DNA from: an uncultured Planctomycetales bacterium
GTDB taxonomy: Bacteria; Omnitrophota; Gorgyraeia; Zapsychrales; JANLHA01
NCBI GenBank assembly: GCA_964374105.1
Contig: CAYJXI010000001.1
Coordinates: 135,743 to 199,742, forward strand
Direction of reading: 5' to 3'
Length of the DNA: 64,000 nt
A program made the position numbers and the translations under genes. This document shows, in pieces, positions 1-64,000 of the stretch (position 1 is the first letter of the stretch; every line of letters begins with the position of its first letter). Under the pieces are notes generated by a model. The model did not search any database. It was not told the DNA's origin and saw only the letters and a list, made by a program, of their open reading frames with translations.

Positions 1-2
1 GA

Positions 3-3000
3 GTGGCTAGGGAGCTAAGGACCCGTACTCGTGCCGAGATAGTGGAAAGCCTGCGGCAGAGAAAGATAGAAATTGGGAAACACGATGACTCGCTTAATAC
101 GCTCGAGTTATATTTCAAGGTCGGTTCAATGAGTAGTAAACCGAAAGGTTCATATCATATTCTCACTATCCGATATCCTTTGGAAGATAACGTTATCGAG
201 AAGGTGGAACTTCGATATGCCTATGCGAACGACGATTCGTCAGATGCATTCATCGCAACAAGTGTCTGGACCCTCAGCTCTATTCGGGACGTAGCTATTG
301 TTGAGGGGAATGATAGACACCAAGTGCGGGTCGTGATGATACTCAAGGCAGGTGCTACCGAAGGCTTGAATTTAATCGGGCATCCTATTTCTGAGGACAT
401 CGTGAATCCGGATGGTTCTCATTTTAAGCGGACCTTTGAAGTCATGAGGGAAGAGGATATTGTTAAAGATGAAGGCCTGATCCGTCAGGCTGGTTTAAGC
501 GTCTGGAAGAGGATGACTCAATCACTTAACCGTATTGAATGGTTGGGCAGCCTGCCGCATACAGCTCAGGTCAATGCGCTTGCTTTCTCTTATGACGGAC
601 TTTATCTGGCGGCAGGCACACAGAACGGCGAGGCGCCGGTCTGGAGCGTAGATGTCGGTATGAAACGCCACACTAACAAGAATCCCGATGGCAAGCCCAT
701 TCATGATGTCCTTATTACCGGTACAGGAGAAGAGGCCCTGACCACCGGTGAGAGCCAGTCCGTCCAACAAGGGGAAGGGCAGGAAGAACACAACGATGAC
801 GATGATGACTTTGATGATGAAGATGATGATGTTTCTGATCGCAACGCGGATAAATATCCGGCCACGATGCCAACAACCAATGAACTCGACCGCGCACCGA
901 TAAAAGAAAAACTAGAGACAATTAGAACAGCCTTGGGTGGTAGAAAGGCCTTGGTTGAGAACGGCATCAACCTTAGTGGAATTAATGTGGTAATGAGCCC
1001 AACGCTCGCTGCGCCAGCCGAGGTAAGGGGTGGGATCCTGTATATTAACCCGATTACATTGCGTGCACCCCAAGAGCAGTTAATGGTCATATTCGAAGGT
1101 CATGAACTGTATCACCTTTTGGGTCGCAATGAAGAAGAGACCCGCCATCTCACCCTGCAGTATCTCATTGAACACAATCTCTTATTAAGACACATCGCCT
1201 TCCTTGAAAATAATGATCTCGGTTTAACTGCTCATCAGGGATGGTTAAAGCAACTCCAAAGGACTTTACAACAACTCGCAAATGAGAGTTTACTGAATGA
1301 AGAAAGAGAAGGGGTCTTTTTACTTAAGAAACTCAAAGGGCTTATGGTGGCTGTGTCCCTCATGGATATTGGGGCGGAAGTTAGTTCAGAGGGCCGTATT
1401 GATTATCGAGAAAGTCTTAACAAGACTAGAGAACTTCTAGCCATTTTAGCCGAGCAGGGTGTAAGTAGTATTTACCTTTACGGCGGGTTATATGCAATTG
1501 GCGGAATATCTATACAGCTTCACCAAGTGCCCAATCCAGGCCTCCATATATTAACAAATAGGCAAGCAATGATTGGCATTGAAAATTACCAAACCAAGAG
1601 CCAGACCTTGGAAGGCAAGATCAATGTTGAACTGAAAGATTATTTTGGTAATCCGTTCTCCATTTACAGTATGCAAGTTTTGAATCCTAAATTATCGAAT
1701 GGGAATGTTGAGGAAAACTTAACAGCATTAATCCAGACGGCACAACGTTTTGGATTAGACGTGACAGTTGATTTTATCCCATGGTTGGCGCCGGATGCGA
1801 TTAACGAAGGGAATTATCGCTGGACGATTTATCGAGAGATGAATGATTATGAACAACGCCATCCAGAAAATGTCTTGGGTGAATATTTTGCAGTTAAGAT
1901 TAATGAAGATGGTAAACAACGCTATGTGGCTGTTCGACATTTGCTGGGCTTCGGTACGCCTAATGTGGATGAGACCATCCTCAATGCATTTGATCCGCAA
2001 ACACAGAAATATTATATCGATTCCTTAAAATCATTGATGGATAGAGGAATATACAGTGTACGGGTGGATTTGGCGCACAACCTCCTTATGAATCATTTGA
2101 TTCATTATTTTCCAGAAGGCCGACAATTGGAACTAGAGGGTGAACCTGAACCATGGTCGATTATCTTTAAGGCCGTCAAAGAGTATGCCGATAAAAAGGG
2201 GAGAAGATTTAAATTTATTATGGAAACATATGATCAAGCCGATCGGGATAATCTGCGTTCGTTAGGAAAATATGCAGATGTTGATGTGCAGGTTTATTAT
2301 AAAAATGTTTATGATGATTTTAATAAACCTTCCACTGATGACTTATCCTGGTCGGTTAATTATGCGATAACTGTAAGTCCGCAGACAATCGTATTTCCGT
2401 CCAATTTTGATGAACCGTCCTTAAAATTGCTAAATGGATCTCGATATGGATTTATGCGATTGTTACTGGTGATGGCTTATTTGGGAGTGCCGGTGATGGT
2501 AGATTTAAGAGAATGGGTGGATCATACTGGTCAAATTAACACGATAGTGGGAGGAAGAGATCCGAGTGGATATATCCGGCATCCGTTTGTGACAGCCGAT
2601 GAATTATTAAGAAGAAGAGATTGGAATGGTCTAAAAACAGCAGTTTTGAGATCTCCCTGGACAAATTTTGTCAGAGAATTACAGGAGACATCTTTAGAAT
2701 CTCAGCCGGATTCGATTATTGAGGAACATCGGGTTTCAGCTTGGTATTTATTTAATTACGCAGATATACAATATCAGGGACGATTTATCAGTCTCGGTTG
2801 GTTATTAGCAGATCGGCTGAACATCTTTATCTATAATGCCCGACCAAAGGAAATTGAACAAACAATTACCGTGAAGTTGCCTTTTGACTTATTGGATGTT
2901 TTAAAGGACGTTGGTCAAGAGACATTGGGAGTATCCTTTGCCTCCGGTGAGGAAAGCCGCTTGATTTCTATTTCGTTAATAGGACTTAAAAAGAAGAGAT

Positions 3001-6000
3001 CTTCTTATGAAATTGCACTGAGTATGATTCAACATGATTCCTTCACCTGGGCCAATGAATTTTATCAATATTACTTAAGGTATGATAGCGAAAAATTATC
3101 TGACTTTAAGAATGAATATGAGGACGCATTAAGAAAATTATTGTTCTATTACGATCAAGATTATGCTAAAGCCAAAAATATTGTCAAAGGGGTTGCTTGG
3201 ATTTTAGCCAAACCTGAATTTTTAGGTCCAGTCAATCATGAGGCTTTGAAGGACTGGGGAGAAGATTTAAGAACAGTCTTTAACATTCTTGATACTTTTG
3301 AAGGAAACACAGAAGGAATCGTTGAGATTCTCATTAACTATCTCAAAGCTAAGGATAACAGTCGTTGGGTCATTTATCAAATTTATAGAGCTTTGGATAT
3401 TTACTTAATGAGTGGCAAAGATAAGAAAGAAGAGCATCTGTTTAAGCGAAGCGTTGCTATTTTAAGATCTGACGAGGTTAAACACGTAGCCCAAGAAACA
3501 TTGATAGAAGAAGCTGAAAGAACAAAGAGATTGGCAGAAATAGCCAGGAGTCTTGAGCAACTATTCTTCCCGTCAGAGCCAGAAAATGACGAAAAGGAAA
3601 AGCCAACCCAAGGTTTCAATGGAGCATACCAAGGGACAAGAGAAGAATTGGTAAAGGCCATTTTAAAGAGTCAGAGGATCGATGTGTCTCCCAAGTTAGC
3701 TTCGATGATCGGTCGCCAGTTTAATAAAGGAAGTCCGGTTTATGAGGCAATCGCCAAATCTCACGGATTAAGGGCGCCACCTAGAAGGATTGACAGAATT
3801 GATGTTGTTGATTTAGGCATCGATTATCGATCCGTCCTTGTTGCTCTCGGATTTTATGAACCTCAAATTACATTTGTCTTAACTCCATCCTATTATCGTC
3901 GTTTAAGAATTTTATCTCTCCTACAATTTATTTTTGGTGTAAAGCACATTTTTGATTCTCATTTGAAGATTGTATTGCGGCATGAAGTCATTGAATTCCT
4001 TGTAAGGGATCATCTGAAGGCTAAACAGATTGAGGAGGGCTATCAGTTAGCAATAAAGTCTTCAAAACTTATTGATTTTGTAAAAGGGCCGCAGCGAACG
4101 ATGCTCATTCACTTCCCGTGGCAGGTGATGAGCAAACTGAGTCGTACGTTCACTGCGGCCTTAAATTTAATGAAAGGGCTGTTACAAAAACTGCTCAATA
4201 CCATTCCGTGGCTGGTGAGGGGCAGGCTATCAGCTGTTAGTTATCAGCTGTTAGCTAAATTTGTAACAGCCCTTAGATTTGCTAAGTTCCCATTGCTTTT
4301 GTTTATTTTCATTAGTCTTTCCTTTCCAACGAAATTATTGGCCCAAGGTGTTTTTGAAGAATTTGCATCCACTCAAAGTTCAATGCCATTAGTCTTTAAG
4401 CTAATTTTGGTCGGGGTGGCATTAGGTTTGATAGGTATCGGATTAATGGTTTATCTGGCTTCAAATGATGCAAAAGGATATCTCAAACAAATAGATCACT
4501 CTCAGATCAAAGAGGGTAAACCCAGAATCCTAAGGATCATTCATTCTCTTAGAATAGGTGGGATGGAAAATAAGTTATTAGAACTGGCTAAGCATATTGA
4601 TACAAATGAATTCAACCTCATTATCTTGACGCACGAGAGTCAGGAGCAATATTCGGAGGATATTGAAAGGGCCCGGAGCCGAGGCATCCAATTTATTTTC
4701 AAACGTCCACAAGTTAATATTAGAGGGTATTCAGGGAAGGTGAAGATCATGAGGTTATTCCTACGATTGATTCCTTACCTTAAATCTACCCTAGTTGAGT
4801 TGATGTTGTATAGGGCCCTTAAGGCCGAGGTGATCCACTTTAGCGGTCCCGGCGGGTTAAGTTACCTGATTAAGAAAATATTGGCGAGATTCTTGGCCCG
4901 TATCCCGATTCTTTTAACAACCTATCATGGATTCCCGGTCATTAAGAGAGAAGGTTATCTTGAGCGATTTGGTAAGACGATAGTCCTGCTTTATACGATT
5001 TTGACTGTCTTTGGCATGCGTTATTTGGATCATGCCTTGATTGCCTTAACGGAAAAAGAAAGGAAAGCCCACATCGAAACAGGTGTCCCTCCCCAAAAGA
5101 TCTACGTGATCCCCAATGGGATTGATTTAAGAAACTTTGAGAATATTGCAATGCCAACGGGAATCTCTTCGTTAGATTCGCGGCTGATCGAAATCCTTGC
5201 AAACGAGAACAACTTGATTATAGGAACTGTGGGAAGGCTCCATTTTGTTAAAGGCCATGAATATCTGATCACGGCAGCTAAGCAGATTTTGGCAGAGATT
5301 CCGAATGCCTATTTCTTTATCTTCGGAGAAGGAGAGATAAGAGGGAAACTTGAAAGCCAAATCAAAACTTTAGGTTTAGCGGATCGATTCTTTATCCCAG
5401 GGAATATTTCCCATGATGATGTGCCCAAAGTCCTTTCTTTAATAAATATCTTTGTTCTTCCCTCTTTGAGTGAAGGGATGCCGACCGTCGCTATGGAAGC
5501 CATGGCTGCGGGACTTCCCATTGTTGCCAGTCGTGTTGATGGGATTCCGGATACAGTTGGACAAGAGGCAGGAATCTTAGTTTCCCCCAAAGATTCATTG
5601 GCTTTGGCGAAAACGATCATTCATCTTGCAAAGAATAAAGAAGAAAGAGAAAGAAGAGGTGTACTGTTAAAACAACGAGCCTTGGAATTATTCAGTATAG
5701 AAAGGATGACACGACAATATGAGGAGCTGTATAAAAGATTATTAAGGATTCAATATTTAAAGAGTCAGGAAGGGTGGATCAACCGTTGGTTTGGCCGAGG
5801 AGTGGCTGGTTTGATGTTAATCCTTGCCTTGCCAGTGATGGGCTTGATTGCCTTAGCTATCAAACTGGATAAGCGACATTCTGGAACGGTTATCTTTAGA
5901 CAAAATAGAATCGTTGGATACTACACCGATGGAAAGCCGATCACCCAAGAAATCATCAAATTCCGTACTTTGACAGTGAGTCCCACCGAAGGATTGGGTG

Positions 6001-9000
6001 CTATTCAAGGAATCGAAAATCGCATTACACCTTTAGGTCGTTTCCTGCGTTATCTGCATTTAGATGAATTGCCGCAGTTATGGCAGGTTGTGAAAGGGGA
6101 TTTAAGGTTAACCGGCTTCCGGCCACGGGCCTTGGCCGTAGAAAAAGAAACCGGTACAAATATTTTCCAGGAATGGCGTGAACTGTTGATTCAAAATAAT
6201 CTGTGGGCCGGGGTGATTCCCCCTGGCATGCTTCGAAAATACAGGTTGCTAAAGAGAAGTCAAAGGAGAGAAGATCCGCATCTACACAAGGTAGAGATCG
6301 AGGCGATCACGCATTCGGCCTTTTTGAATCATTTATTCATCTTGGGAGAACTTGGGATTTATATCATCTTAAAGGTCTTTAATGGCTTGATTGCAAGTAG
6401 GGCAAGTGATGTAGGGGTGCTTCGGTTAGAGGAGAGGGAATTTGCAACAGCTTTGGCGGATCGTCGTAAGTCAGGGGTAACTGAAGAAAGTATCATACAA
6501 GCGCAAATGAAGTTGAAAGAGTACGGGATCGTTTCTACCCCAACTCCACTTAATGGAATCGTAGGATTAAATGATTTTGTCAATCAAGTCCTCGGCCGCA
6601 ACAAGGAAAACGACGTGAAGGTCTACCTCAAAGACGAAACCGTTAATCCAACCGGTTCTTTCAAGGACCGTGCCCCCATTCAAGTATATCTTGACGTTGA
6701 ACTGGTGCTTAACGGTGAGATCAAGAAAATGTTTGTCCTGTCTGTCTCTACTGGCAACCACGGCCTGGCCGTTGCCCATGCGGTGAAGACTGTTATTGAA
6801 CATTTCAAGAAAGAATATCCAGACATCAAGGACCGGGTTGAGGCCCGGGTTTATATGTCCCAGGGTACGTTGGTTCATAAACGCGAGAATATCCGCAAAG
6901 AGGACGGAATCGTAGTGACCGAAATTAACGGCCAGAAGATCAGAAGTTATGAGGACGGAGAAACTGAGGTCTTCCGCCTCGTGAAGGAAAACGGCAAGGG
7001 TTATATCCAAATCCGTCATGCCGACAAGTACGTGGTTTCCGGCTATGCCACCATTGCGGTTGAAATCTTGAAACAACTCGAAGATCGCGGTATCAAGCTG
7101 GCACAAATCCAAAATGGCGAGGTTGTCGTGATTTCACCGATGGGATCAGGGGGACTTCTGGCTGGTCTTCTTCAGATGACAGCCCGTTATCCGGCGGTTC
7201 ATGGGTATGGCATCACCGCCAAGCCAGCGGACATGACCTTTCGCTCGCTATTAATCGGGGAGGCGATCCGCGAGGTGGTGGAGTTGGATTACGAGGTTGT
7301 GGTTGACGGCAATATGGCCACAACGGAAGAATTTGCTTTGAAACTGATTCAAGGTTTGGGTAAAGGAGCGTTTCTGGTCAGCGAACAGGATGCCCTCATG
7401 GCCACCGCCTTGTTGAGGCACTTTGGGATTGTGGTTGAACCCACCTCGGGATTACCTTTGGCCGGGCTTTTAATATTCGCCGATCAAAAAGAACAATTGT
7501 TAACCGAAGCTCGTCATCTTATCATGCCGCTCACCAGTAAGAATTTAAGTGAAGAAATGAATGAAAAAATTAAAGGCCTCTCTAAAGATTTAGGAAAGAT
7601 TTATGAATATTTCCTTGAGCGCAGGAAACAGGTAAAGGACGAAAGCAGGGACAGCCCCTACTTTTCAGCTGGAAAAGTAGGAACAGCCCCTACTTTCCAC
7701 AAATATTCAACATTATACTCTATGGATGCTTTTGTATTGCTGGCTGTTGCAAGCATAATGGCGCTGGTTGGTCTGGGACTTTTTGCAAAATGGATTTTAA
7801 CAAAGAGAATCAAAAATCTTATTGGGAAAGATAATGCCCTCTTAAAACGACTCAATCAATTAATGACTTTGAAAGACAAGATTGTCTTTGTTCCCTTCCG
7901 GCGAAAATTACAAGAGCTTTATACGCAAGGTAAAATTACATTCTCCAAAGGTTTAGGACAGTATTCGCAATTTATCTTAAACCGCATGGCCTTTGAGTTA
8001 GTGATGATTTATCCCAAACCGCCTTTGCAGGAGATGAGGGTTAACTGGACTTCTAGAGAAGCATCTGGATTTTCCGGACAGTTTGACCGATTGGGTCGGT
8101 TCCATTATCAGGTGACCATTGCTCAAAAAAGAATTCCCCAATCAGGTGTTTATGACAAAAAGTTTGATTACACCGTTGGTGCTGCCGAGTCTGGCCATTT
8201 GGCGCAAGCGTATTTGCAGGATGTTTTGAATTATCCCGAAACATATCAAGGTCCCGGGGCGGTTTATATGACGGGATTGTCTGAGGCAATTGAACATTTA
8301 TCCATCAGATTGTACAAATCCCTTAATTTCAAAGTCGAAGACTTCTTTAAAGATGACACTGAGTTTGATCCACATCTCTTCCTGGCCCTAAGACAGATTA
8401 ACGAAGGGTCTCTGCTTGATCCAACGTTGGTGGGTGTTGGAGCCCATGCCTATGGGATTATTATCGCCAATAAGATCAGCGAGAAACTTAATATATGGAA
8501 GCAACCTCATCAATATCGTTATAGAAAACTGACAAGATATCTGAGAGCTTATATGCAGCTTTTAATCACGGTGGATTCTTCGGTTTTAGTGAAACCCGCG
8601 GATGCGGAGTTGCAATTATTAGTTGGATTTCTGTCAGCTGTTCAAAAGGCTATCGAGAGGATTTTTGAAGGGCAAGTTGCCAAGATACAAATTTTGAAGT
8701 TAATCAAGAAACTTGACAGAGTGAATTTTGAAAAGTTGTTTGAAAAACCGCAAGTTCAAAGACTCTTTGAGCGAGGGATTAAAGAATCGGAATTGACAGA
8801 ACTTAAGACCCTGTATCAAGAGCTGAAAGAGATTGATTGGGAGGCTTCCGAAGCCAAAATACAAGCGATACTGGAATTACAAAACATTAAGAGAGTAATG
8901 GAAGAGATTCACCAAAGGGTGATTGCCCCATTCCAACAAAAAGCGAGAGATTTTGTGGAGGATGAAGTCAACAAAATCCTTGCCATCGATTCACCTAAGG

Positions 9001-54000: not shown

Positions 54001-57000
54001 GGGAAACCGTAAAGGTCTATGGTCAGCGGTTCCCGCAGATTTTAGAGACCTTGGCGGGATTATTGAATAGCGATATTGGTCATTATGTGGCTATGCAAGA
54101 ATTAGGCTCATGGATTATCCTTGAGGAAAAGACAGGGAGAATCCGCTTGCGATCTGAAAGTCCAGCCATGAAATTATCGTTTACTCTTTGGGCGGTCCGC
54201 CATGGCCAGACAAAAGGGAACATCAAAGGGATATTCCAAGGCGCGGTGGATAAAGAAGTCAATCAGCTCGATAAGACAGGACACAAGCAGGCTCAGACAG
54301 CTGCCCGGAAGTTGTTCAAAGAGCTTAAAGATGAGATTCATTCCGGCCGAGAGATTGTTGTGGTGACCAGTCAGTTTGCCCGGGCCAGAGATACCGCAGC
54401 CGCGTTTATTAATCTTGTTAAAGAAAAAGCAGGACTGATCATTCATCCCATTTTAGACAAAGGGGCCAATGAGATATCCTTTGGGATTTGGGACAACAAA
54501 ACCGAAGAGCAATTGCGCCGCGAACAAGAAAGGATATCTCGTTATCGCAAAGGACTGGATGCCGCAATCCGGCCGCAGGGCGGGGAGAGTTTTCTGGATG
54601 TTGTCAGGCGCGCACGATATTGGCTTCTTGAATTAAACAATCGTTATCGCGGCAAGACCGTTATCGTTTTTAGCCACGGAACGCTTCTAAGCGCGGTGCG
54701 GGTTTTGTTAGGCGACACGTCCCTCCATGATGAGAGCGGCCAGATTGACTGGCGTAACAAAATGATCCCGCATGCCGAACCGGTATTGCTGGCAAAACCC
54801 CGGGTGTTAACTAACACAGATATCGAATTAGGCTACTCTCATCAAGATCCTGCTAAAAGCAACCGTCCCTTAACGAATAAGGAAATTTCAAGGATCAAGG
54901 GAATTTTAGATCAACACAAAAAGATAATTCAAGAGGCCCCTATCAGCCATGATGCTGAAAAACAAAAGCTGATTCGTTTAATACGAAAGAAGTTTGAAAA
55001 AGAATCAGACATCTTAAATCGAGCTAAAGTGATCGAGGCTCCTTCAGAAGTCGCTGAGGCTATCGATGAGCTTAAGAATACAAGTCCGGATCTTACCCTC
55101 TCTGCCCTAAATACGGAATGGGAAGGTCAAGACTATATCATTCTCTTTGAAGAAACAACAAACCAGCGAGAACTTCTGTGGCGTGCAGTTCTGCATGAGG
55201 CAAAGGCTATTCAACTAAAAGGGACAGCCACCTCCAAGCAGATCCATACCCGCTCCGAGATTTTTGAAAATGATTTCTTCAATTTCCAGAGAAGAAGAAA
55301 GATGATCCTTTGGGGTATACCTACGACATTGGCCATTTTGGGCGGTGGGTTTATGTTAGGTGAGTTCTTGAAGCTTAGCCCAATGGAAGAGGATACCTTG
55401 GAAATTTTCTATGGCCGGCACAGCACTAAAGAAGATTTTGAAAAATATAAGAAATATCTTGCTCGACAAATCAAAAGAGCCAAGCTCGCAGGAAAGAAGA
55501 TGATCTTCCTTCATGAATACAATGGCCTGGAGGCGCATTTCAATCATCCGTGGGTGAGAAGAATCTACAACTTATACCTCACCAATCTTCAAGAGGCGCA
55601 GAAAGAACTGGACTCAGAAAGAGAGCAATCCGAAGCCGCGGCCAACCGGTATATCCGCGGGATATCAAAAGGATTGATGGTGGGTGGTCTCGCAGAAGGA
55701 TTTTTAAGAGACACAATTGAATTCCTCAAAGAACATCAGATTGAGATTGTCTATGAAAAGCTGAAAGTCGAAGATTGGGTTTTAAGTGTCCAAGCGAGCG
55801 TTGAATTGCAAAACGCCACCGACCATTTTCTAGCAGGAAACATCAATAGCTACTTAGAGAGTATGCGAAACAAATGGTTGTTCAATCAAAGAAGCACCGA
55901 AGGCCGAGACCAGAAATTAAGGCAGCAGATTAATGACTTTATGGCCCCCGGGAATGTTTATCTTATCAGCCATCGCGGGACATACCATGTGGGAATGGAG
56001 AAAGTCTTGACCCAAGCCAATTATAAAGTCAAAGCTCATCATGAGCCTTTAGCCGAATTGTTAACGAAACAGCATGGCTGGTCTATCATCACACTCAAAG
56101 AAAGACTCGGGGTTGTGGTTACTGAGCAAGAACGCCGTCTTAGGCTCTATCAGGAGATGGTTGGACAACTGCTGCATAATTATTTCATCAATAAGAAGAT
56201 AACTCAAGATGACCGCGAAAAAATGGTGAATGCCATTTTGAGTTCTGAGAAAGTTACCGAAGAGATGGTGATGGAGTTGTCTCAATATTTAGCTGTCTTG
56301 GGGAATCAAAGTTATTCCTTCCTTACCCAGAGGGCTTATCAATGGCTTGAAAAGGAGGGTTTGATTCCCGAATCAGTTAAAGCGAGGCTTAAAGACAACA
56401 CCAGAAGCAGCCGGCTGCTGACGGATAAAGAGAATGAATACATTCAAAAGGTAATGATGGAACACAAAGAGCAAATCGCTCTGGCGGCCCGAGAGGCTAT
56501 CGGGGATGATCCCTTTAAAGATAAGAAAGAACTTATCATTAAGATTCTTAAGGACAATCAATACCAGGATCTGGCTGAGCGTTTAAGGAATGCAGTTGTC
56601 ATCACGGCACCTCTTCATGGGATCAAAGATCACATTTTAAGAGGATTGATCCAAGATATTTCCCTCCTTGAAGGAGTAGCCAGAACAAAAGACGAACCGT
56701 TAATTGTCTATGCCCTGAATAGCCAAGTTGCCATTGAAGAAAAAGATTTTGATGTGATCATTCTTCTTTCTGTCAGCCAAATCAATGAATTGGAAATCAT
56801 CAAATCTCTTGTTCATGAAACAGTGGCTATGTCTAAGGTAGGAGAGGATTACACAAAGGTGCACGCAGCTGCATTGGAATTAGAAAATTGGATTGAAGAA
56901 CAATTAACAAATCTTTCTGCCTCTAAGTCTAAGAAAGGGAAGAAAAATCCTAAGGAAGATAAGACCAAACGAAGAAGGAAAGGAAAGAAAAGTATCAACG

Positions 57001-60000
57001 ATCTTTTCTTTGACTTAAGCGATCCCGATGAGTTTATTGCCTCTGAGGCCGCCATTGAGTTAAGTCTAAGGGACGATCTCTCCATAGAACAGTTACTCGA
57101 TTTCTTAAATGATCCTCAATTGCCCGCCAGCCATGATCCCCGTTGGGAAAGGGAAGTTTACAAAGAAGATGTTGTTTTAAGAAACCTTCGTGTGGCTGTT
57201 TTGGAAATCCTGAAAGATACCTTAAGTGATGAGGATTCATTACCTCAAGCCCATAAACATAAGCGAATATATATTGATCAAATCCTCAATCAATTGGCAG
57301 CGGAATGGACTGACAAAGATGACGATCTTCTTTCAACTATCATTAAGAAGAACCCTAAGAATCCGTTGGGGGCTAAGGAAAAATTATCGTTACTGCATGT
57401 CATGACCTTGACGATTCGTTGGTACATTGGTCTGCTTAAGAGTTTTCCCGCCCTGTGGTTTTTGGATACGCTTGAGGAGATTTTAGACTTTTCTTTAGAA
57501 TCCATGGCTCGCCGGTTATGGTTAGATCGCTACTATTTAAGTGATGCTTGTGCGGCGATTCGTATGATTCATCCTTCTATCGATACCCGGCCCGGCCAGA
57601 TCGTTTACGGTGGTATTTTATCGAAAGTGAAATCCGGCAAGCGGCATACCCCGAAAATAAAAGGCCCACAAACACCAAAAGGAAAAACTTCAAAAAGAAC
57701 CTCAAAAGAAAAATCAAAGAAGGAATCTCAGGCAGAAGATCTGGGCCCCGCAGAGGATGTGGATACATATTTAGATCCAACCAGAAGCAGCCGGCCGCTC
57801 ACTCGCAGAGAATATGATTATGTCAACAAGGTACTTAAGGACAATAAGGATTTAATTCTTAAAGAAGCCAAAGAAGCCCTTCAATATCCTCCTTACAAAG
57901 AAATAAAAGAATTCATCGCCAAAATTTTAGAGGATCAAGAGAAAGTTGATATCGCCAAACGATTACGGCATGCGATTGTCATCCATGCCCCGCCTGCGGT
58001 TGTTGAGGCCATTGTTTCTCTTCAAGAAAAATCCACCCACACCCCGCTCGTTGTGTCGGCCTTAAATACTCAAATCAAGATCAAGTACAAAGTCCATGAT
58101 GTGATTCTCCTTATGCCGGTGAGTCAAAATGACGAAATCGTGTTGGCCCGGACTTTGGTGCATGAGACGATCGCCATGAGTTTACAGGATCAAGTATCGT
58201 ATCGAGAAGCCCATTACCAAGCGATGATCGCTGAATTGATGGTCGATTTTTACATGAAACCGACCATTGCCGTTTATACGGATAACAACAGTCCTGAAGC
58301 CCAAAGAGAGATTGTGCGAGATTGGAATATTCTTAAATATCCTCAAAATTCCGTGAATGTTGTATTATTCGAAAGTTATCCGGCGGATTATGAGAATCTG
58401 ATTATTCACGACGGCCGTGTCTTTATCAAGAAAGCCTTAGTATATTCTGCTGTCTTGGATCATTTCTTTGCGTTTGAATTTAGAGAAAGACCGGTTGAAA
58501 TTCATTATCTCTATTTAAGAGTCCAGACCTTTAGTTTATCAACTAGGGAAGAACTCCAGCAAATTCAATTCCCCATGGATTCGAGCCCGCTGGTCTATTA
58601 TTTGGAAATTAATAAGAAACTCCAAGTGGATTTAGTCAAAGAACTGGGAATCCCCACCAAAGATATCAAGCTCATCTTTAAAGGGCAAGACACAGAGGAA
58701 TCCTTTGTAGTTAAGGGATTAGAGGGACTCCTTAGCCAGGGGATCCACAAGGTATTTATCCAGCCCTCCAACATGGCAAATCAGAAATTTACAAGTGTCT
58801 ATGACTTACGCGATCCAAGCCAATTTGAGCATGCCGTGACTTTGATCTTGAAGGGAGTTAAGCACCCAACCAAACCGATGATGCTGGTTGAGGATTATAT
58901 TCCTCATTTGCAGAGTTTCGGCAGAAATACAATGATCCGTTTAGTTGTGACACAAAAAGACACAGGAGAATTCATTGTGGATCCTATTGCCATATCGGTT
59001 TTCGAGGAAGTGGAAGGGACATTTGATTATGTGAAAGAAGGATTCAAGGCTTGGATTTTACTGCCCCTGGAGGGTCATAGTGTTCCTGAGGTTTATTTAA
59101 AGCCTCAGCCCACAAAGGAATTCTTAGAAACAATCGAGGATATAAGGCTTAAGGATCCCAAGGTGATCGAGGCCTTTTATAACAAGGTCGTTCATACAGT
59201 GCTTAGAATCGAAGAATACTTGACAAAGAAAGGGTTCGGGGCGCAAAGCCGAGCTTATGATTTTATTATCTCTCAAGAATGGGAACGTAATGAGACAACC
59301 GGTTTAGATTTACCAAAACTCTATTTTGCCGAGGCCTCAACCGCCTATCGCGGCTTAACCAGAATTTTCCGCAAACATCTCATAGAAACGGCGACCTCAA
59401 TGGCCATCGAGCGCTTTAAGAAAATCAATGATTTGCAAAAAACAGATGATTCTCAGGGACATCTGAAAGAGGATAGCGCCCTTTATGTTAAGTGGATTGA
59501 AAGTTTAAGAAGGAGCCTCAAGGAGCAATTGGAATTACCCACGGGTCAAATCGACAATGAGGAAATCCGAAGGCAACGCGAGGCCCTTTTCAATGGAATC
59601 AGAGGACATTTAACCAACGATGGTCAGTTGATCCTGGATGAGGCGCTTGATTACTATGGCCATTATGGAGTGAGTGAATCAAAGCCCCATGTCTTAAAGG
59701 GAAGATCCGATATTCGATCAGTCCTTTTTGCCATTGAGATCTATATCATCACGCATCAGGTGAGTTTGGAGGAAATGAAAGGCTTAGAAGAAGTTTTGGA
59801 GGTTTACAACCGACTGCGAAAGAAGCTCAATCAAGCGGATCCGCAAAATGAACACGGATATGATTCTCTCCTCCTTTCGATGATGATGGCGATAACGGCC
59901 TTCCATAATGAGAAACAAATTCCTGCATATTTGCGTTTGGTGAAACAGTTAGAGAATCTTCCCGGGGAATACAGATATTTGGCGGTGACCTTACACCTGT

Positions 60001-63000
60001 TGTTTAATGCCATGCATGCCAGAAGCGGATTCACTAGTCCCGATGAATTGGATGTGCAATCAAATATTCCTGGCCTGAAATTTATCTTGAAGGCTATCCA
60101 GCAAGGGATTGATGATCCCGCCATCGAGGAATCATTCAGGCCCAAAATCATCCTGAGCCTTAAGTTGGCCTTGGTGTATTATCTTAAGAACTATGCCTCG
60201 TGGCTCGCCCAGACATATCTTGAAATTAAGGAGTATGAGCATGGGGTGTCCTCTGAGCTTAGGATGTCAGATTCGTTAAGGGAACTAAAGGAGTGGATAT
60301 TTAAAAACAAAGAACACATCCTTGCGATTGTGAAAGAAATCAAAGAACTGGAAAAGACAATCGGCTTTTCCTTGGCCTTTGCCGGCTGGGGATGGTTCGG
60401 CTCTTATTATTTTGAGGGACTTGATAAACTCCTTATTTTTGAGGATACAGAGGGACATCCGGTTAGCTTTGCTGAGGTTCTGTTAAATCCCTATGAGAAA
60501 AGACACAGGCTTTGGCTTATTAAATTCTTCTATCCCCAAGTGCAGGGGTTGATTGAGGCATTGCAAAACAAAAAGATCAAGATTCCTGATGATTTACTGA
60601 GATTTATTTTAGCGGATGAGTGGAATCGTAATTATCTTGATGCCATTCAAAAGAAAGATCCCAAGAGATACGAGAAATACATGCAGTCCTTCCATCAAGA
60701 TGAACTGAAAGGTTTACTTCTTAAATTACACGCAAAAGATTTGGATTTAGCCGACCAAATTCCGGATCTCTATCGACTCTTCCTGATGATAGGATTTCCT
60801 TTCCGGATGTTTCTCTTACAGGATTCTCAAGAGTTTTTCGAAGTCTTGATCAAGCGCATTGAAGACATTGAGGAAATAGAATCATTGGCAGAAAAGCCAA
60901 TCTTTAAGATCAAGGACACAGAAAAAGTGCGGGTTTCCGAAGAGTTTGCTAAAGAAGTCTTAATCGCAACCGAAGTTTTGGATTATCCCCAAGCTCGAAT
61001 TTATCCTTATGCGGAGGTGATTTTCGAGGATTACAGGGATGTGAACATTATTATTTACAGTGAACCTAAGGATTATCTTCGTGTCCTTCAATTTATGAAA
61101 GAAGCCTCCACCCACAGGGGTGTTAATGTCTTGTTGATTGAGAAAGGAAGTCTTAAGGAATTCGAGCATCGCGGCAAAAAGTATTTGGCAATCAAATCCG
61201 CAGTAACCTTTAAGTATGGGATTCCCATCTTTGTCAAATTCAAATACTTTACCCAATTGCACGCCATGATTGACCTGACCGATGAATTTGCTTCGAAATT
61301 CCAAGACATAGGTATCCCCATCTTCACGGATCTTGAGACCAAAATTAAGGAGATGATCAAAAAAGCCAAAAGATATAAACATCCCAAACAGGATGAAGAG
61401 TCAGAGGAAGAAAAGAGTGACCCGGCCAGAAGCGATCGGCCGCTTAATGATGAGAAAAGAAGAGATTTAAGAGAACTCCTTAAACAACACCAGCAGGAAA
61501 TCCGTTCCTATTTTAAAAACGAGATTGCGCAAGAGGAAAAACACATCGTTGCCTCAATATTGGAAGAGAAAGGGCATCGTCATTTAGCGGATATTCTCAA
61601 AGGGGCACTTGTCATTAACGCCCCCCCCGGATTACTTAAGGATATCATGGCCTTTGAAAAGAAATATCAAATTAAGATTTATGCCTTGAATACATTCCTT
61701 GATAAACAACATATCATTATTCTTTTTGATATCAGCTTGGAAAATCAAATCGAACCTGCCAAATCCCTGACCCATGAAGCTGTTTCGATCTATTTAAGTC
61801 AGAAGAAAAATATCAAGCCGGAGGAAATTCATACAGAAGCTGAGCACATGGCTTATGAGGTATCCTTAGAGATTCGGTACGTCTTACAGGGACCTCTCTT
61901 GGATGTTGTGGCCCAGGAACTGAAGACCATTAATGAGCAATTATTGAGTCTTTCCAAGGAGGCCCCACCTGAATTGAGACTTAAAAATCCGTTGCATGTG
62001 CTTTCTCCGGGGCTTGGGTTTGGCAAGGTCTTGACGTTTGATCGAAAGACGATTCTTAGCTTCCTTAAGGATTATCTCCATAAAAAGTTTATTAGAACGG
62101 TTGCTTTTGCTAAAAAATTGAGATGGTTGGGTGGATTGATTTTGGTCAGTATTCGCCTATTGTTGATGATTCAAATACTTTTATCATCCAAGAAACGATG
62201 GGAGGTCTTTAAGAACTATGTCAATAATTCGGTGGTTGTTGCTTATGCACTCAATATTTATGAGGTCAATGCATTGATTGATTATGGGGCCAGGTCCTTT
62301 ATCACCCAGCGTGGAAATACGTTAAGCTTTTCCGCCATCTCTGCAGAACGGCGGGATATCCCTTGGGTTATCATGGAACCCGAGGATATTGATACGTTGA
62401 AGGCCGATCAAATCCTCGTGGTTGATAGTCGATTAGGAAAAGTGGTTTCTTTTGAGGAATATGATCTTGAGGCTTCCATTGTTAAACGTTTGAATGAGGC
62501 CACCTCTTTAATCAAAATGGCCGAAACTCCCGAGGAGATTGTTATTATCCGCAATTGGCTGAAATTTGAACTTGCCAAGATTAAAGATATGGCAAAGATG
62601 CGGCAGTTAATTATCCCAGAGACTACCGTTCGGTTGGGAGAAATTTATTTGCGTTCAGAAGCAAAATTAGAATTATTCCGGCGAGAGATCAGCCAACAAC
62701 TTCAGGAAATGATTGAGCGTGTCCGTCAAAGCCATGATGAATATTTGGGGGATGCCTTAAGACTCTTACGCAGAGCCCGCCGTTTGGGAATTGTCAATAG
62801 AGAATTGGAGATGGAAATCGAGAAGATTATCCGGGAAAAAGAGGAGATCCATCGTAGCCAATTTGCCAAACGATATGTTATACCTTTTGATTATAGCGTT
62901 ATGCCGGATTTAGCCAAATGGGTAGGCCAAAGGGCTATCCGTCAGGCCGAATTACAAAAGATCTCATTAAAATATGGGTTTAAGATCGCCAGTGGATTTG

Positions 63001-63998: not shown

Positions 63999-64000
63999 CT

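What the first reader, a model, noticed from the sequence alone, without database searches (positions are those of the whole stretch)
1..64000. The whole window is a single stop-free reading frame: at least 21,332 codons of one giant gene
Frame 3 of the + strand contains no TAA, TAG or TGA over 64 kb, whereas the other five frames are littered with stops. The ORF track lists nothing in frame 3, and its longest ORF elsewhere is 181 aa. For a sequence of this composition, chance predicts about 1,000 stops in a frame this long. Conserved enzyme motifs (GT4, PglC-like, PLP, M23, SNF2, MTase, kinase DFG, His phosphatase RHG) all fall in this same frame at hand-indexed checkpoints from 5.4 kb to 54 kb, so it is coding rather than an artefact. 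The gene continues beyond both window edges and is therefore longer than 64 kb. That puts it among the largest bacterial or archaeal genes known; genes of tens of thousands of codons have so far been reported mainly from uncultivated Omnitrophota.
Basis: partly seen in the sequence, partly recalled or inferred. Interest (0 to 1): 0.95.

Follow-up and report, generated by a model that had tools for sequence, protein, structure and literature searches.

The report
Internal slice of a giant gene
The whole 64-kb window is an internal slice of one enormous bacterial gene that strings many enzymes onto a single membrane-tethered protein. Thousands of such genes are now known from uncultivated Omnitrophota, but this one is almost entirely free of cysteine.

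Summary
Observation confirmed. Frame 3 of the + strand (nt 3-63998) has 0 stops in 21,332 codons. The other five frames have 872-1,693 stops. Chance expects 826-1,303 (P about 1e-366 or less).

The frame is coding throughout. Codon usage favours it in 42 of 42 sub-windows. At least 14 enzyme or repeat families hit in this frame, with catalytic motifs intact. No nucleotide repeat is long or similar enough to cause assembly collapse.

Interpretation supported but less exceptional than claimed. The ORF matches the multi-enzyme, membrane-tethered giant proteins of Omnitrophota (Archaeovorin type). These now number 3,650 proteins of 10,000 aa or more, up to 147,155 aa. Omnitrophota origin is inferred only: a Pfam-less 190-aa helical module, present 11 times here, was found elsewhere only in two Omnitrophota MAG proteins, both pieces of long, contig-truncated multi-enzyme ORFs. 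No close relative exists in any collection searched.

Features not mentioned in the three giant-protein papers checked:
- Only 2 cysteines in 21,332 residues (about 213 expected at 1%).
- Six in-frame copies of a 30-nt palindromic hairpin, conserved at nucleotide level. The same element occurs in at least 120 unrelated metagenome contigs.

Verdict: new member of a known kind, with moderate interest.

The parts
3..63998 (+). Single stop-free reading frame of 21,332 codons, open at both window edges.
   Evidence: 0 stops, against 872-1,693 in the other frames; 826-1,303 stops expected; codon-usage likelihood best in this frame in 42 of 42 sub-windows.
4401..4466 (+). Hydrophobic transmembrane-type helix (aa 1467-1488) with a K/R-rich C-flank.
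   Evidence: Kyte-Doolittle 19-residue mean 2.62; flank charges.
4554..5654 (+). GT4-family glycosyltransferase (Glyco_transf_4 plus Glycos_transf_1), with EX7E motif at aa 1824.
   Evidence: E 1.7e-14 and 2.5e-38; motif; best public homologues are about 30% identical stand-alone GT4 proteins.
5784..6149 (+). PglC-like phosphoglycosyl transferase (Bac_transf), with its N-terminal hydrophobic helix at nt 5805-5870 and a DE dyad at aa 2021.
   Evidence: E 6.7e-24..
6600..7475 (+). Fold-type II PLP-dependent enzyme domain (PALP), with the lysine motif NPTGSFKDR.
   Evidence: E 5.3e-33..
7728..7793 (+). Hydrophobic helix (aa 2576-2597).
17421..17729 (+). M23 peptidase domain (peptidoglycan endopeptidase family). 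The Pfam match starts at aa 5807; an HxxxD string was found only at aa 5790, upstream of the match, and no HxH.
   Evidence: E 1.1e-07, 32.4 bits against a cut-off of 28.7..
18294..18306 (+). Hairpin element copy 1. Only the first palindromic half is intact; it encodes GRGDSP.
19827..19856 (+). Hairpin element copy 2: GGGGACAGTCCCC-N4-GGGGACAGTCCCC, in frame, encoding GDSP..GTVP.
   Evidence: -25 kcal/mol, z -4.8; reads as an intrinsic terminator on the minus strand.
21279..21308 (+). Hairpin element copy 3.
   Evidence: -25.5 kcal/mol, z -5.5..
20160..20225 (+). Hydrophobic helix (aa 6720-6741).
20277..20756 (+). HEAT repeats. A further HEAT_2 hit lies at nt 13380-13571.
   Evidence: E 5.7e-12..
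23040..23105 (+). Hydrophobic helix (aa 7680-7701), followed directly by hairpin copy 4.
23136..23165 (+). Hairpin element copy 4, with a perfect 13-bp stem and 4-nt loop.
   Evidence: -30.6 kcal/mol, z -5.9..
24984..25013 (+). Hairpin element copy 5, with the stem extended by six further pairs on each side.
   Evidence: -38.5 kcal/mol, z -7.8.
27033..27062 (+). Hairpin element copy 6, preceded by a 9-nt tandem repeat (GGGGGCAAG, 3.6 copies) at nt 27005-27036.
28401..32567 (+). Copies 1-4 of the Pfam-less 190-aa helical spacer module (aa 9467, 10146, 10353, 10678). Motifs: PPAMQPKW, EFVxxHxxVYDVxxGxWRxPT, LAxxTDxAY, AAxxVHxxYN, GILAM.
32589..38786 (+). Three tandem repeats of about 695 aa (43-48% identity in the three-way alignment), beta-rich, with no Pfam or PDB match.
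   Evidence: model pLDDT 54.5, not usable.
39417..40814 (+). SNF2-family ATPase plus Helicase_C (GLGKT, DEAH).
   Evidence: E 1.7e-27 and 2.6e-09..
41277..41633 (+). SAM-dependent methyltransferase domain 1.
   Evidence: Methyltransf_11, E 1.4e-11; public hits to a query spanning methyltransferase 2 (nt 42300-45602) include long Omnitrophota proteins.
42321..50297 (+). Copies 5-11 of the 190-aa spacer module, alternating with enzyme domains: methyltransferase 2 (nt 43266-43556), ABC1 kinase-like with DFG (nt 47091-47387), GNAT (nt 48498-48695).
50325..50954 (+). HAD-superfamily phosphatase (DLDGV, GDSVPD).
   Evidence: E 7.4e-27..
52407..52409 (+). One of the only two cysteine codons in the ORF. 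The other is at nt 57549-57551.
54186..54716 (+). Histidine phosphatase (branch 1), with RHG at aa 18066.
   Evidence: E 7.2e-30..
62127..62192 (+). Hydrophobic helix (aa 20709-20730).
62226..63791 (+). PEP-utilising mobile domain (nt 62226-62432) followed by a PPDK_N ATP-grasp domain (nt 62946-63791).
   Evidence: E 4.1e-05 and 1.6e-24.

Best explanation
The window is an internal 64-kb segment of one real protein-coding gene of at least about 21,300 codons. It belongs to the class of giant, membrane-tethered, multi-enzyme proteins described from uncultivated Omnitrophota (Archaeovorin type of West-Roberts 2023; class 1 'multi-enzyme metabolic clusters' of Nielsen & Lui 2026).

Shown here:
- One uninterrupted frame with uniform codon usage.
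- At least 14 recognisable domain families, with intact catalytic motifs in most of those checked.
- A beads-on-a-string layout. Enzyme domains are separated by HEAT repeats, three 695-aa tandem repeats and 11 copies of a novel 190-aa helical spacer module.
- About six hydrophobic helices.
- Near-total avoidance of cysteine.

Inferred: the gene is transcribed and translated as one unit into a polypeptide anchored to the cytoplasmic membrane at intervals.
- Its N-terminal third carries a glycan-initiation block (GT4, PglC-like transferase, PLP enzyme) and a peptidoglycan endopeptidase (M23).
- Its C-terminal half carries small-molecule and phosphotransfer enzymes: SNF2 ATPase, two methyltransferases, an atypical kinase, GNAT, HAD, histidine phosphatase and a PPDK-like domain.
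- The likely role is remodelling the cell envelope or the host interface in a host-dependent ultra-small bacterium.
- The spacer modules would act as structural separators or docking units.
- The cysteine avoidance suggests that much of the chain must be exported unfolded, or must function outside a reducing cytoplasm.
For: Frame and coding signal:
- 0 stops in 21,332 codons.
- 826-1,303 stops expected.
- this frame is best in 42 of 42 sub-windows.
- GC and AT skew are positive throughout.
- domains and catalytic motifs.
- in-frame ATGs with a Shine-Dalgarno motif are depleted (1 of 402, against 12 of 710 out of frame), which argues against internal genes.

Architecture and assembly:
- modular repeat architecture.
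- no nucleotide repeat longer than 117 nt or above 77-85% identity, so assembly collapse is unlikely.
- hydrophobic helices.

Kinship to Omnitrophota giant ORFs:
- the 190-aa module was matched by only two of the 150 listed hits (185 in all) from 1.84 billion representative proteins. Both are NCBI Omnitrophota MAG proteins.
- one of them is the frameshifted tail of a multi-enzyme ORF of at least 5,620 aa that carries four or more copies of the module.
- the other (P0126, 4,914 aa) fills its whole 14,742-nt contig and shares two further Pfam-less regions with the window ORF.

Literature:
- the domain repertoire (GT, methyltransferase, GNAT, HAD, HEAT, peptidase, PPDK, many TM helices) matches the published class.
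- reports proteomic detection of the V. archaeovorus giant protein.
Against: - No start, stop, promoter, neighbouring gene or marker gene lies in the window. Gene length, taxonomy and genomic context are therefore not directly shown.
- No close relative was found in 5.8 billion proteins, in GTDB representative genomes or in JGI metagenomes.
- No SecA-DEAD, NUDIX, glycosyl hydrolase or C39 domain was found in the window. These are frequent in Archaeovorins.
- Membrane topology rests only on hydropathy. Four strong helices all have K/R-rich C-flanks, which does not give a simple alternating topology.
- The enzymes need cytoplasmic cofactors (ATP, SAM, UDP-sugar, acetyl-CoA, PEP). This conflicts with an exported location suggested by the cysteine avoidance.
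- The module-sharing Omnitrophota relative is not cysteine-poor (0.89%).
- No expression evidence exists for this gene.
Confidence: 0.85

Rival explanations
1. The giant gene is real but encodes a polyprotein. The chain is cut at recurring linker motifs into many separate enzymes rather than acting as one giant protein.
For: - Each 190-aa module starts with a highly conserved short motif (PPAMQPKW) after an acidic, poorly conserved linker.
- Another nucleotide-conserved linker motif (DPTRSSRPL) recurs three times (family D7).
- Other long cysteine-poor multi-enzyme proteins found through the methyltransferase domain show recurring linker strings such as RSEMR, RSELR, GARLA and DAASLG..TDAAGL.
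- West-Roberts et al. raise cleavage by C39 or S8 peptidase domains as a possibility.
Against: - No processing protease domain (C39, S8) was found in the window. M23 is a peptidoglycan peptidase family.
- No cleavage data exist.
- The conserved motifs could equally be structural parts of the module. In the AF2 model the motif region has low confidence.
Confidence: 0.25
2. The stop-free frame is an assembly or bioinformatic artefact: a chimeric concatenation, a collapsed repeat or a generated sequence, not a gene that exists in a cell.
For: - No identical or near-identical sequence was found in any public collection searched.
- Read support cannot be checked here.
Against: - Chimeric joins would not keep one frame open for 64 kb (P below 1e-366).
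- Codon usage is uniform.
- Internal repeats are old and divergent: 23-61% amino-acid identity in self-BLAST, with nucleotide repeats of 117 nt or less.
- Catalytic motifs are intact.
- The Pfam-less module recurs in independent Omnitrophota MAG assemblies within the same module-plus-enzyme architecture.
- Sequencing errors break long ORFs rather than create them.
Confidence: 0.04
3. It is a real giant gene, but from a lineage other than Omnitrophota, such as another PVC-group or candidate phylum, or a mobile element.
For: - The window holds no phylogenetic marker, tRNA or rRNA.
- The best GT4 homologues are from Nitrospirota and others at about 30% identity.
- Proteins of 30 kAA or more also occur in Verrucomicrobiota, Firmicutes and Actinobacteria.
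- GTDB r232 representative genomes gave no hit.
Against: - Both public proteins seen to share the 190-aa module, and two of the named top methyltransferase hits, are from Omnitrophota MAGs.
- Three different Pfam-less regions are shared with an Omnitrophota giant-gene fragment.
- The hairpin element was not found in IMG/VR viral contigs; the ORF's protein was not searched against viral collections.
Confidence: 0.2

Closest known systems
Archaeovorin-type giant proteins of Omnitrophota. The type is the giant protein of 'Candidatus Velamenicoccus archaeovorus' LiM (West-Roberts et al. 2023, bioRxiv 10.1101/2023.11.21.568195).
   Same: - A single ORF of tens of kilobases.
- Many different enzyme domains: glycosyltransferases, SAM methyltransferases, a peptidase, a pyruvate-phosphate-dikinase domain.
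- HEAT repeats and several transmembrane helices.
- Long stretches with no Pfam match.
   Different: - No SecA-DEAD, NUDIX, glycosyl hydrolase, TPR or GT5 domain in this 64-kb slice.
- It carries an SNF2 ATPase instead.
- Only 2 cysteines in 21,332 residues. That paper does not mention cysteine.
- The N-terminus and the T2SS-like neighbourhood cannot be examined.
Class 1 'multi-enzyme metabolic cluster' giant proteins (Nielsen & Lui 2026, bioRxiv 10.64898/2026.06.07.730766), for example KR0015B_u4168876_114 at 147,155 aa.
   Same: - Many distinct Pfams tile the chain and none dominates.
- Methyltransferase (PF08241), GNAT, HAD (PF13419), GT1 (PF00534) and HEAT are among that catalogue's typical families.
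- TM helices are spread thinly along the chain.
- The sequence is unique at the clustering level, as 80% of that catalogue is.
   Different: - Only a lower bound of 21,332 aa is visible here.
- TM density (about 6 strong helices per 21 kAA) is lower than the roughly 1 per 370-1,000 aa reported for the largest examples.
- Cysteine avoidance and in-frame hairpins are not described there.
Giant ORF on Omnitrophota MAG contig JAHJCZ010000056.1 (GCA_018812705.1; locus L121), and the fragment MFO8053229.1 (P0126).
   Same: - They share the 190-aa helical spacer module in the same 'module then enzyme' arrangement.
- P0126 shares two further Pfam-less regions with the window ORF.
   Different: - Identity is only 23-39%.
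- The enzyme cargo differs (HATPase_c, Glucosamine_iso, NTP_transf_3, LMWPc, LOG).
- Cysteine content is normal (0.89% and 0.73%).
- GC is 0.38 against 0.44, and no hairpin element is present in L121.
Rickettsia palindromic elements (RPEs) and REP-type palindromes. These are short palindromic repeats, some inserted in frame in coding genes. Own knowledge: Ogata et al. 2000, Science. This comparison concerns the hairpins only.
   Same: - A short palindromic DNA element occurs many times, including in frame within an ORF at permissive linker positions.
- Conservation is at nucleotide level, not protein level.
   Different: - It is much shorter (30-41 nt against roughly 100-150 nt for RPEs).
- The identical core occurs in contigs spanning GC 0.32-0.73.
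- No transposase link is known, and mobility was not tested.

Membership tests
Omnitrophota giant multi-enzyme proteins (Archaeovorin type / class 1) | Single ORF of 10,000 aa or more (Nielsen & Lui catalogue threshold). | tested here: met
   21,332 stop-free codons, open at both ends.
Omnitrophota giant multi-enzyme proteins (Archaeovorin type / class 1) | Gene longer than 90,000 bp (the 'giant' set of West-Roberts et al.). | not testable with these tools
   The window is 64 kb and the ORF leaves both edges. The source contig was not found.
Omnitrophota giant multi-enzyme proteins (Archaeovorin type / class 1) | Many distinct enzyme Pfams with none dominating, including glycosyltransferases, methyltransferases and peptidases. 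| tested here: met
   GT4, Bac_transf, PALP, M23, SNF2, two methyltransferases, ABC1, GNAT, HAD, His_Phos_1, PEP-utilizers, PPDK_N.
Omnitrophota giant multi-enzyme proteins (Archaeovorin type / class 1) | HEAT repeats (the most frequent Archaeovorin domain). | tested here: met
   HEAT_2 at three places, best E 5.7e-12.
Omnitrophota giant multi-enzyme proteins (Archaeovorin type / class 1) | Numerous transmembrane helices. | tested here: inconclusive
   six strong hydropathy peaks plus five weaker ones. No dedicated topology predictor was available.
Omnitrophota giant multi-enzyme proteins (Archaeovorin type / class 1) | Divergent SecA DEAD-like domain (present in most full-length giant genes). 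| tested here: not met
   no PF07517 hit in the window, only SNF2/DEAD. The feature is 'most', not 'all', and could lie outside the window.
Omnitrophota giant multi-enzyme proteins (Archaeovorin type / class 1) | NUDIX hydrolase and glycosyl hydrolase domains. | tested here: not met
   none within the 21,332 aa seen.
Omnitrophota giant multi-enzyme proteins (Archaeovorin type / class 1) | Encoded in an Omnitrophota genome. | tested here: inconclusive
   No marker genes in the window. Indirect support: the module and two other regions are shared only with Omnitrophota MAG proteins.
Omnitrophota giant multi-enzyme proteins (Archaeovorin type / class 1) | N-terminal signal peptide or C39/S8 peptidase, and T2SS-like or carbohydrate-import neighbours. 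| not testable with these tools
   The N-terminus and flanking genes lie outside the window.
Dockerin-type / tandem-repeat-scaffold giant proteins | Many dockerin (PF00404) or TSP3 (PF18884) repeats, or one Pfam dominating by copy number. | tested here: not met
   no such hits. TRF finds only five short arrays.
NRPS/PKS megasynthases | Condensation, adenylation, carrier, KS or AT domains in repeating modules. | tested here: not met
   none of these Pfams hit.
Giant repetitive surface adhesins (RTX/Bap-like) | Dozens of near-identical Ig-like, cadherin or BIg tandem repeats, plus a C-terminal RTX/T1SS signal. | tested here: not met
   only three 695-aa tandem repeats (35-61% identity in self-BLAST) and dispersed modules, with no Ig-like Pfam. 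The C-terminus was not seen.

The most novel reading that the evidence does not exclude
This ORF could represent a distinct, almost cysteine-free sub-type of Omnitrophota giant protein. On this reading, the whole string of cytoplasm-type, cofactor-dependent enzymes is threaded unfolded out of the producer and works in or on the host cell as an effector array, which is why cysteine has been purged (2 of 21,332). Its six nucleotide-conserved, in-frame palindromic hairpins would be functional RNA or DNA elements. They might act as antisense-strand terminators or pause or recombination sites that make a gene over 64 kb expressible or evolvable. They would belong to a widespread, undescribed mini-element that is stop-free in all six frames.
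Probability: 0.12. Interest if true: 0.8.

Novelty: new member of a known kind. Interest (0 to 1): 0.45.

Why it matters
- **Catalogue.** It adds a sequence-unique member to the catalogue of giant bacterial genes. It also supplies three concrete handles that the three giant-protein papers checked here do not mention.
- **Spacer module.** The conserved 190-aa module is shared with other Omnitrophota giant ORFs. It could serve as a family marker and as a boundary guide for cutting these proteins into foldable units.
- **Cysteine avoidance.** Near-total avoidance in a chain of more than 21,000 residues is also seen in other long multi-enzyme proteins, but not in the closest module-sharing relative. 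This gives a testable clue to where such proteins fold and work.
- **Hairpins.** The palindromic hairpins embedded in frame bear on how a cell transcribes, or shuffles, a gene of this length.

None of this changes the basic picture that giant multi-enzyme genes exist and are common in this phylum.

Tried and rejected
**Source contig and close relatives: all negative**
- Word-indexed protein search with aa 14100-15200.
- The same search with the module alignment.
- JGI metagenome scan with aa 1-700.
- The GT4-PglC-PALP block found only ordinary glycosyltransferases at about 30% identity.

**Other searches that led nowhere**
- The exhaustive HMMER search hit mostly through the methyltransferase domain.
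- The hairpin is absent from IMG/VR, from Rfam and from the literature library.
- PDB sequence searches with the module profile and with the 695-aa repeat found nothing significant.
- The AF2 model of the 695-aa repeat was too poor to search (pLDDT 54.5).
- afdb50 was unavailable.
- A relaxed Pfam scan of the dark regions added nothing.

**Ideas rejected**
- General avoidance of stop-adjacent 'fragile' codons as the cause of cysteine loss. TGG, TAT/TAC and TTA are used normally.
- Internal translation starts.
- Cysteine avoidance as a shared trait of all module-bearing Omnitrophota giant ORFs. L121 has 0.89% and P0126 has 0.73%.
- The hairpin-bearing metagenome contigs as relatives of this gene.

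The Kizina et al. 2022 paper could not be read.
Full report
**1. The observation**

Frame 3 of the + strand (nt 3-63998) contains no TAA, TAG or TGA in 21,332 codons. The other five frames contain 872 to 1,693 stops, and none stays open for more than 188 codons.

From base composition, 1,303 stops are expected. From the frame's own codon-position composition, 826 are expected. The chance of none is about 1e-584 or 1e-366 respectively.

The ORF lister reports a single ORF of 150 aa or more, 6567..7112 on the minus strand at 181 aa. It omits the frame-3 ORF because that ORF runs off both ends.

**2. Is the frame coding throughout?**

- Composition at codon positions 1, 2 and 3 is 0.526, 0.334 and 0.460 GC, a typical coding pattern.
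- A leave-window-out codon-usage likelihood prefers frame 3 in all 42 consecutive 1.5-kb windows.
- GC skew and AT skew are positive in every 2-kb window, as expected for a single transcription direction.
- No tRNA, tmRNA or Rfam family is present.

Pfam scans of overlapping 1,000-aa pieces give clear hits, all in this frame:
- GT4 glycosyltransferase (E 2.5e-38).
- PglC-like Bac_transf (6.7e-24).
- PLP-dependent enzyme (5.3e-33).
- M23 peptidase (1.1e-07).
- HEAT repeats.
- SNF2 (1.7e-27) with Helicase_C.
- Two SAM methyltransferases.
- An ABC1-like kinase domain (weak: E 1.7e-04, below the curated cut-off).
- GNAT.
- HAD (7.4e-27).
- Histidine phosphatase (7.2e-30).
- A PEP-utilising mobile domain and a PPDK_N ATP-grasp domain (1.6e-24).

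Catalytic signatures are intact in most of the domains checked: RHG, DLDGV with GDSVPD, GLGKT with DEAH, NPTGSFKDR, EX7E, DFG and the PglC DE dyad. For M23, only an HxxxD string upstream of the Pfam match was found. About half of the chain has no Pfam match even at E 0.1.

**3. One gene, or something else?**

- In-frame ATG codons preceded by a Shine-Dalgarno motif are rarer (1 of 402) than out-of-frame ones (12 of 710). There is no sign of hidden internal genes.
- The longest nucleotide repeats are 110-117 nt at 70-77% identity.
- Tandem Repeats Finder reports only five short arrays.
- Assembly collapse or mis-joining through repeats therefore has no substrate, and random joins would not preserve a frame.

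**4. Architecture**

A protein self-comparison shows old internal duplications.
- A module of about 190 aa occurs 11 times, at aa 9467, 10146, 10353, 10678, 14107, 14563, 14994, 15421, 15893, 16247 and 16583. Domain E-values are 1e-52 to 1e-70.
- In the second cluster the copies alternate with the enzyme domains: methyltransferase, kinase-like, GNAT, HAD.
- Three tandem repeats of about 695 aa (43-48% identity) fill nt 32589-38786. Their model was too poor to use.

Hydropathy gives six strong membrane-helix candidates at aa 1467, 1935, 2576, 6720, 7680 and 20709. The one at aa 1935 is the N-terminal helix of the PglC-like domain. Four of the six have K/R-rich C-terminal flanks. This does not give a simple alternating topology, so topology is left open.

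**5. Relatives and origin**

The sequence has no close relative in any collection searched.
- An exhaustive HMMER search of 1.84 billion representative proteins found 185 hits, none below 1e-30. Nearly all came through the methyltransferase domain.
- Only two of the listed hits matched the 190-aa module. Both are NCBI proteins from Candidatus Omnitrophota MAGs.

The first, MFO8053229.1, is a 4,914-aa partial protein that fills its entire 14,742-nt contig. It shares two further Pfam-less regions with the window ORF.

The second, MBU0468216.1, is annotated 'LOG family protein'.
- It lies directly after, and overlaps by 64 nt, a multi-enzyme ORF of at least 5,620 aa on contig JAHJCZ010000056.1.
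- That ORF carries at least four more copies of the module.
- Its last copy is split between the two gene calls. The 'LOG family protein' therefore appears to be the frameshifted tail of the giant ORF.

Two of the named top methyltransferase hits are also from Omnitrophota. This is indirect but consistent evidence that the window comes from an Omnitrophota-type giant gene.

**6. Comparison with what is known**

West-Roberts et al. (2023) describe 46 Omnitrophota genes above 90 kb, up to 85,804 aa. They define Archaeovorins by glycosyltransferases, methyltransferases, peptidases, HEAT repeats, frequent PPDK domains, many TM helices and large unannotated stretches.

Nielsen & Lui (2026) report 3,650 proteins of 10 kAA or more and 348 of 30 kAA or more, with a maximum of 147,155 aa. 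Their class of 'multi-enzyme metabolic clusters' has typical families that include PF08241, GNAT, HAD and GT1. They note that 80% of long proteins are sequence singletons.

The window ORF fits this class. It lacks the SecA-DEAD, NUDIX and glycosyl hydrolase domains within the part visible. It is not a dockerin-type protein, an NRPS/PKS or a repetitive adhesin. It is therefore a new member of a known kind, and its visible length is not exceptional by 2026 standards.

**7. Cysteine avoidance**

The translation has normal composition except for cysteine: 2 residues in 21,332, with TGT once and TGC once.
- About 300 Cys codons are expected from codon-position composition.
- At a typical 1% frequency, 213 are expected, and P(2 or fewer) is 2e-89.
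- TGG (288), TAT/TAC and TTA are used normally. This is not a general avoidance of codons one step from a stop.

Controls:
- Stand-alone GT4 homologues have a median of 1.08% Cys.
- Short stand-alone methyltransferases have 0.92%.
- The 50 long (1,000 aa or more) multidomain proteins that share this methyltransferase type have a median of 0.11%. Several have 0-2 Cys in 4,000-6,200 residues.
- The module-sharing Omnitrophota relatives have 0.89% and 0.73%.

Cysteine purging is thus a recurrent property of some very long multi-enzyme proteins, but not of all. At least one of the cysteine-poor ones starts with what reads as a signal peptide (read by eye, no predictor run). None of the three giant-protein papers I could read mentions it.

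My inference, not shown, is that it reflects export in an unfolded state or function outside a reducing cytoplasm. This sits awkwardly with enzymes that need ATP, SAM, UDP-sugars, acetyl-CoA or PEP.

**8. In-frame hairpins**

Six copies of GGGGACAGTCCCC-N4-GGGGAC(A/T)GTCCCC lie at nt 18294 (half decayed), 19827, 21279, 23136, 24984 and 27033.
- The spacings are all multiples of three.
- The 13-mer has 21 matches against 0.03 expected.
- The five intact copies fold as RNA hairpins of -25 to -38.5 kcal/mol, with z-scores of -3.7 to -7.8.
- All copies sit in the same frame, encoding (K/R)GDSP..GTVP.
- They use the same minor codons each time (P about 1e-5 per copy given the peptide), while their flanks are mostly unalignable. 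Conservation is therefore at nucleotide level.
- By eye, they lie in linker-like or juxtamembrane segments.
- Three copies read as intrinsic terminators on the minus strand only.

The exact 30-nt element occurs in at least 120 metagenome contigs with GC from 0.32 to 0.73. These contigs are unrelated to this gene.
- Sometimes it forms 17-nt tandem arrays.
- Sometimes it sits at gene ends.
- In five divergent contigs it sits in frame at the same site of a C-terminal domain that resembles a T9SS sorting domain (weak Pfam hit, E 0.006).

It is in no Rfam family and not in the literature library. I did not resolve what it is. A palindromic mini-element that is stop-free in all six frames, and so tolerated inside ORFs, is the simplest reading.

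**9. Verdict**

The feature is a real, sequence-unique member of the known class of giant multi-enzyme genes, most likely from Omnitrophota.

The gene's mere size now merits only moderate interest. The near-absence of cysteine, the shared spacer module and the in-frame hairpins deserve follow-up.

Noticed in passing
window 3-63998 (Cys codons only at 52407-52409 and 57549-57551): Only 2 cysteines in 21,332 residues (0.009%), with Trp, Tyr and Met normal. Other long multi-enzyme proteins sharing the methyltransferase type are also Cys-poor (0-2 Cys in 4,000-6,200 aa). The module-sharing Omnitrophota relatives are not (0.73-0.89%). Not mentioned in three giant-protein papers.
   Followed up: partly
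window 18294-18306, 19827-19856, 21279-21308, 23136-23165, 24984-25013, 27033-27062: Six in-frame copies of a doubled 13-nt palindrome form stable hairpins. They are conserved at nucleotide level (same minor codons) while the flanks are unalignable. Three copies look like intrinsic terminators on the antisense strand only.
   Followed up: partly
loci L001-L120 (for example L003, L009, L033, L060, L070; L001 and L010 carry tandem arrays): The same exact 30-nt element occurs in at least 120 metagenome contigs of GC 0.32-0.73 that are unrelated to this gene. It appears at gene ends, in 17-nt tandem arrays, and in frame (GDCPRTGTVPK) at the same site of a T9SS-sorting-like C-terminal domain in five divergent contigs. 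It has no Rfam family, no literature hit and no IMG/VR hit.
   Followed up: partly
[not shown]
   Followed up: yes
L121 9900-11698 (NCBI JAHJCZ010000056.1, GCA_018812705.1): The protein annotated 'LOG family protein' (MBU0468216.1) overlaps the end of an ORF of at least 5,620 aa by 64 nt, and the two calls split one copy of the 190-aa module. It appears to be the frameshifted C-terminal part of a giant gene, not a separate gene.
   Followed up: partly
window 32589-38786: Three tandem repeats of about 695 aa (43-48% identity), beta-rich, have no Pfam or PDB sequence match. The AF2 model was too poor (pLDDT 54.5) to search.
   Followed up: partly
window 23163-23210, 27075-27122, 57753-57800: A short motif encoding DPTRSSRPL recurs with 60-85% nucleotide identity. 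Twice it lies just downstream of a hairpin copy, and once 30 kb away. It may be a linker or processing motif.
   Followed up: no
window 18288-18305 and 27027-27044: Two hairpin copies are read as GRGDSP and ARGDSS, and the others as KGDSP or QGDSP. GRGDSP is the classic integrin-binding peptide of fibronectin (own knowledge). This is probably a by-product of the palindrome's sequence.
   Followed up: no
window 4401-4466, 7728-7793, 20160-20225, 23040-23105: Four strong hydrophobic helices all have K/R-rich C-terminal flanks (5-6 basic residues). They would all point the same way, which a simple alternating membrane topology cannot accommodate.
   Followed up: no
window 3-63998: In-frame ATG codons almost never follow a Shine-Dalgarno-like motif (1 of 402, against 12 of 710 in the +1 offset). 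This suggests selection against internal initiation.
   Followed up: partly
window 2001-4000 versus 34001-36000: GC content inside the one ORF ranges from 0.379 to 0.495 between 2-kb windows. This may reflect a mosaic origin of modules or differences in amino-acid composition.
   Followed up: no
proteins P0001, P0047, P0061, P0080, P0108, P0119, P0147: Long Cys-poor multi-enzyme proteins found through the methyltransferase domain carry short linker strings that recur many times within each protein (DAASLG..TDAAGL, RSEVR, RSEMR, RSELR, GARLA, SSSP). These may be module boundaries or processing sites.
   Followed up: no
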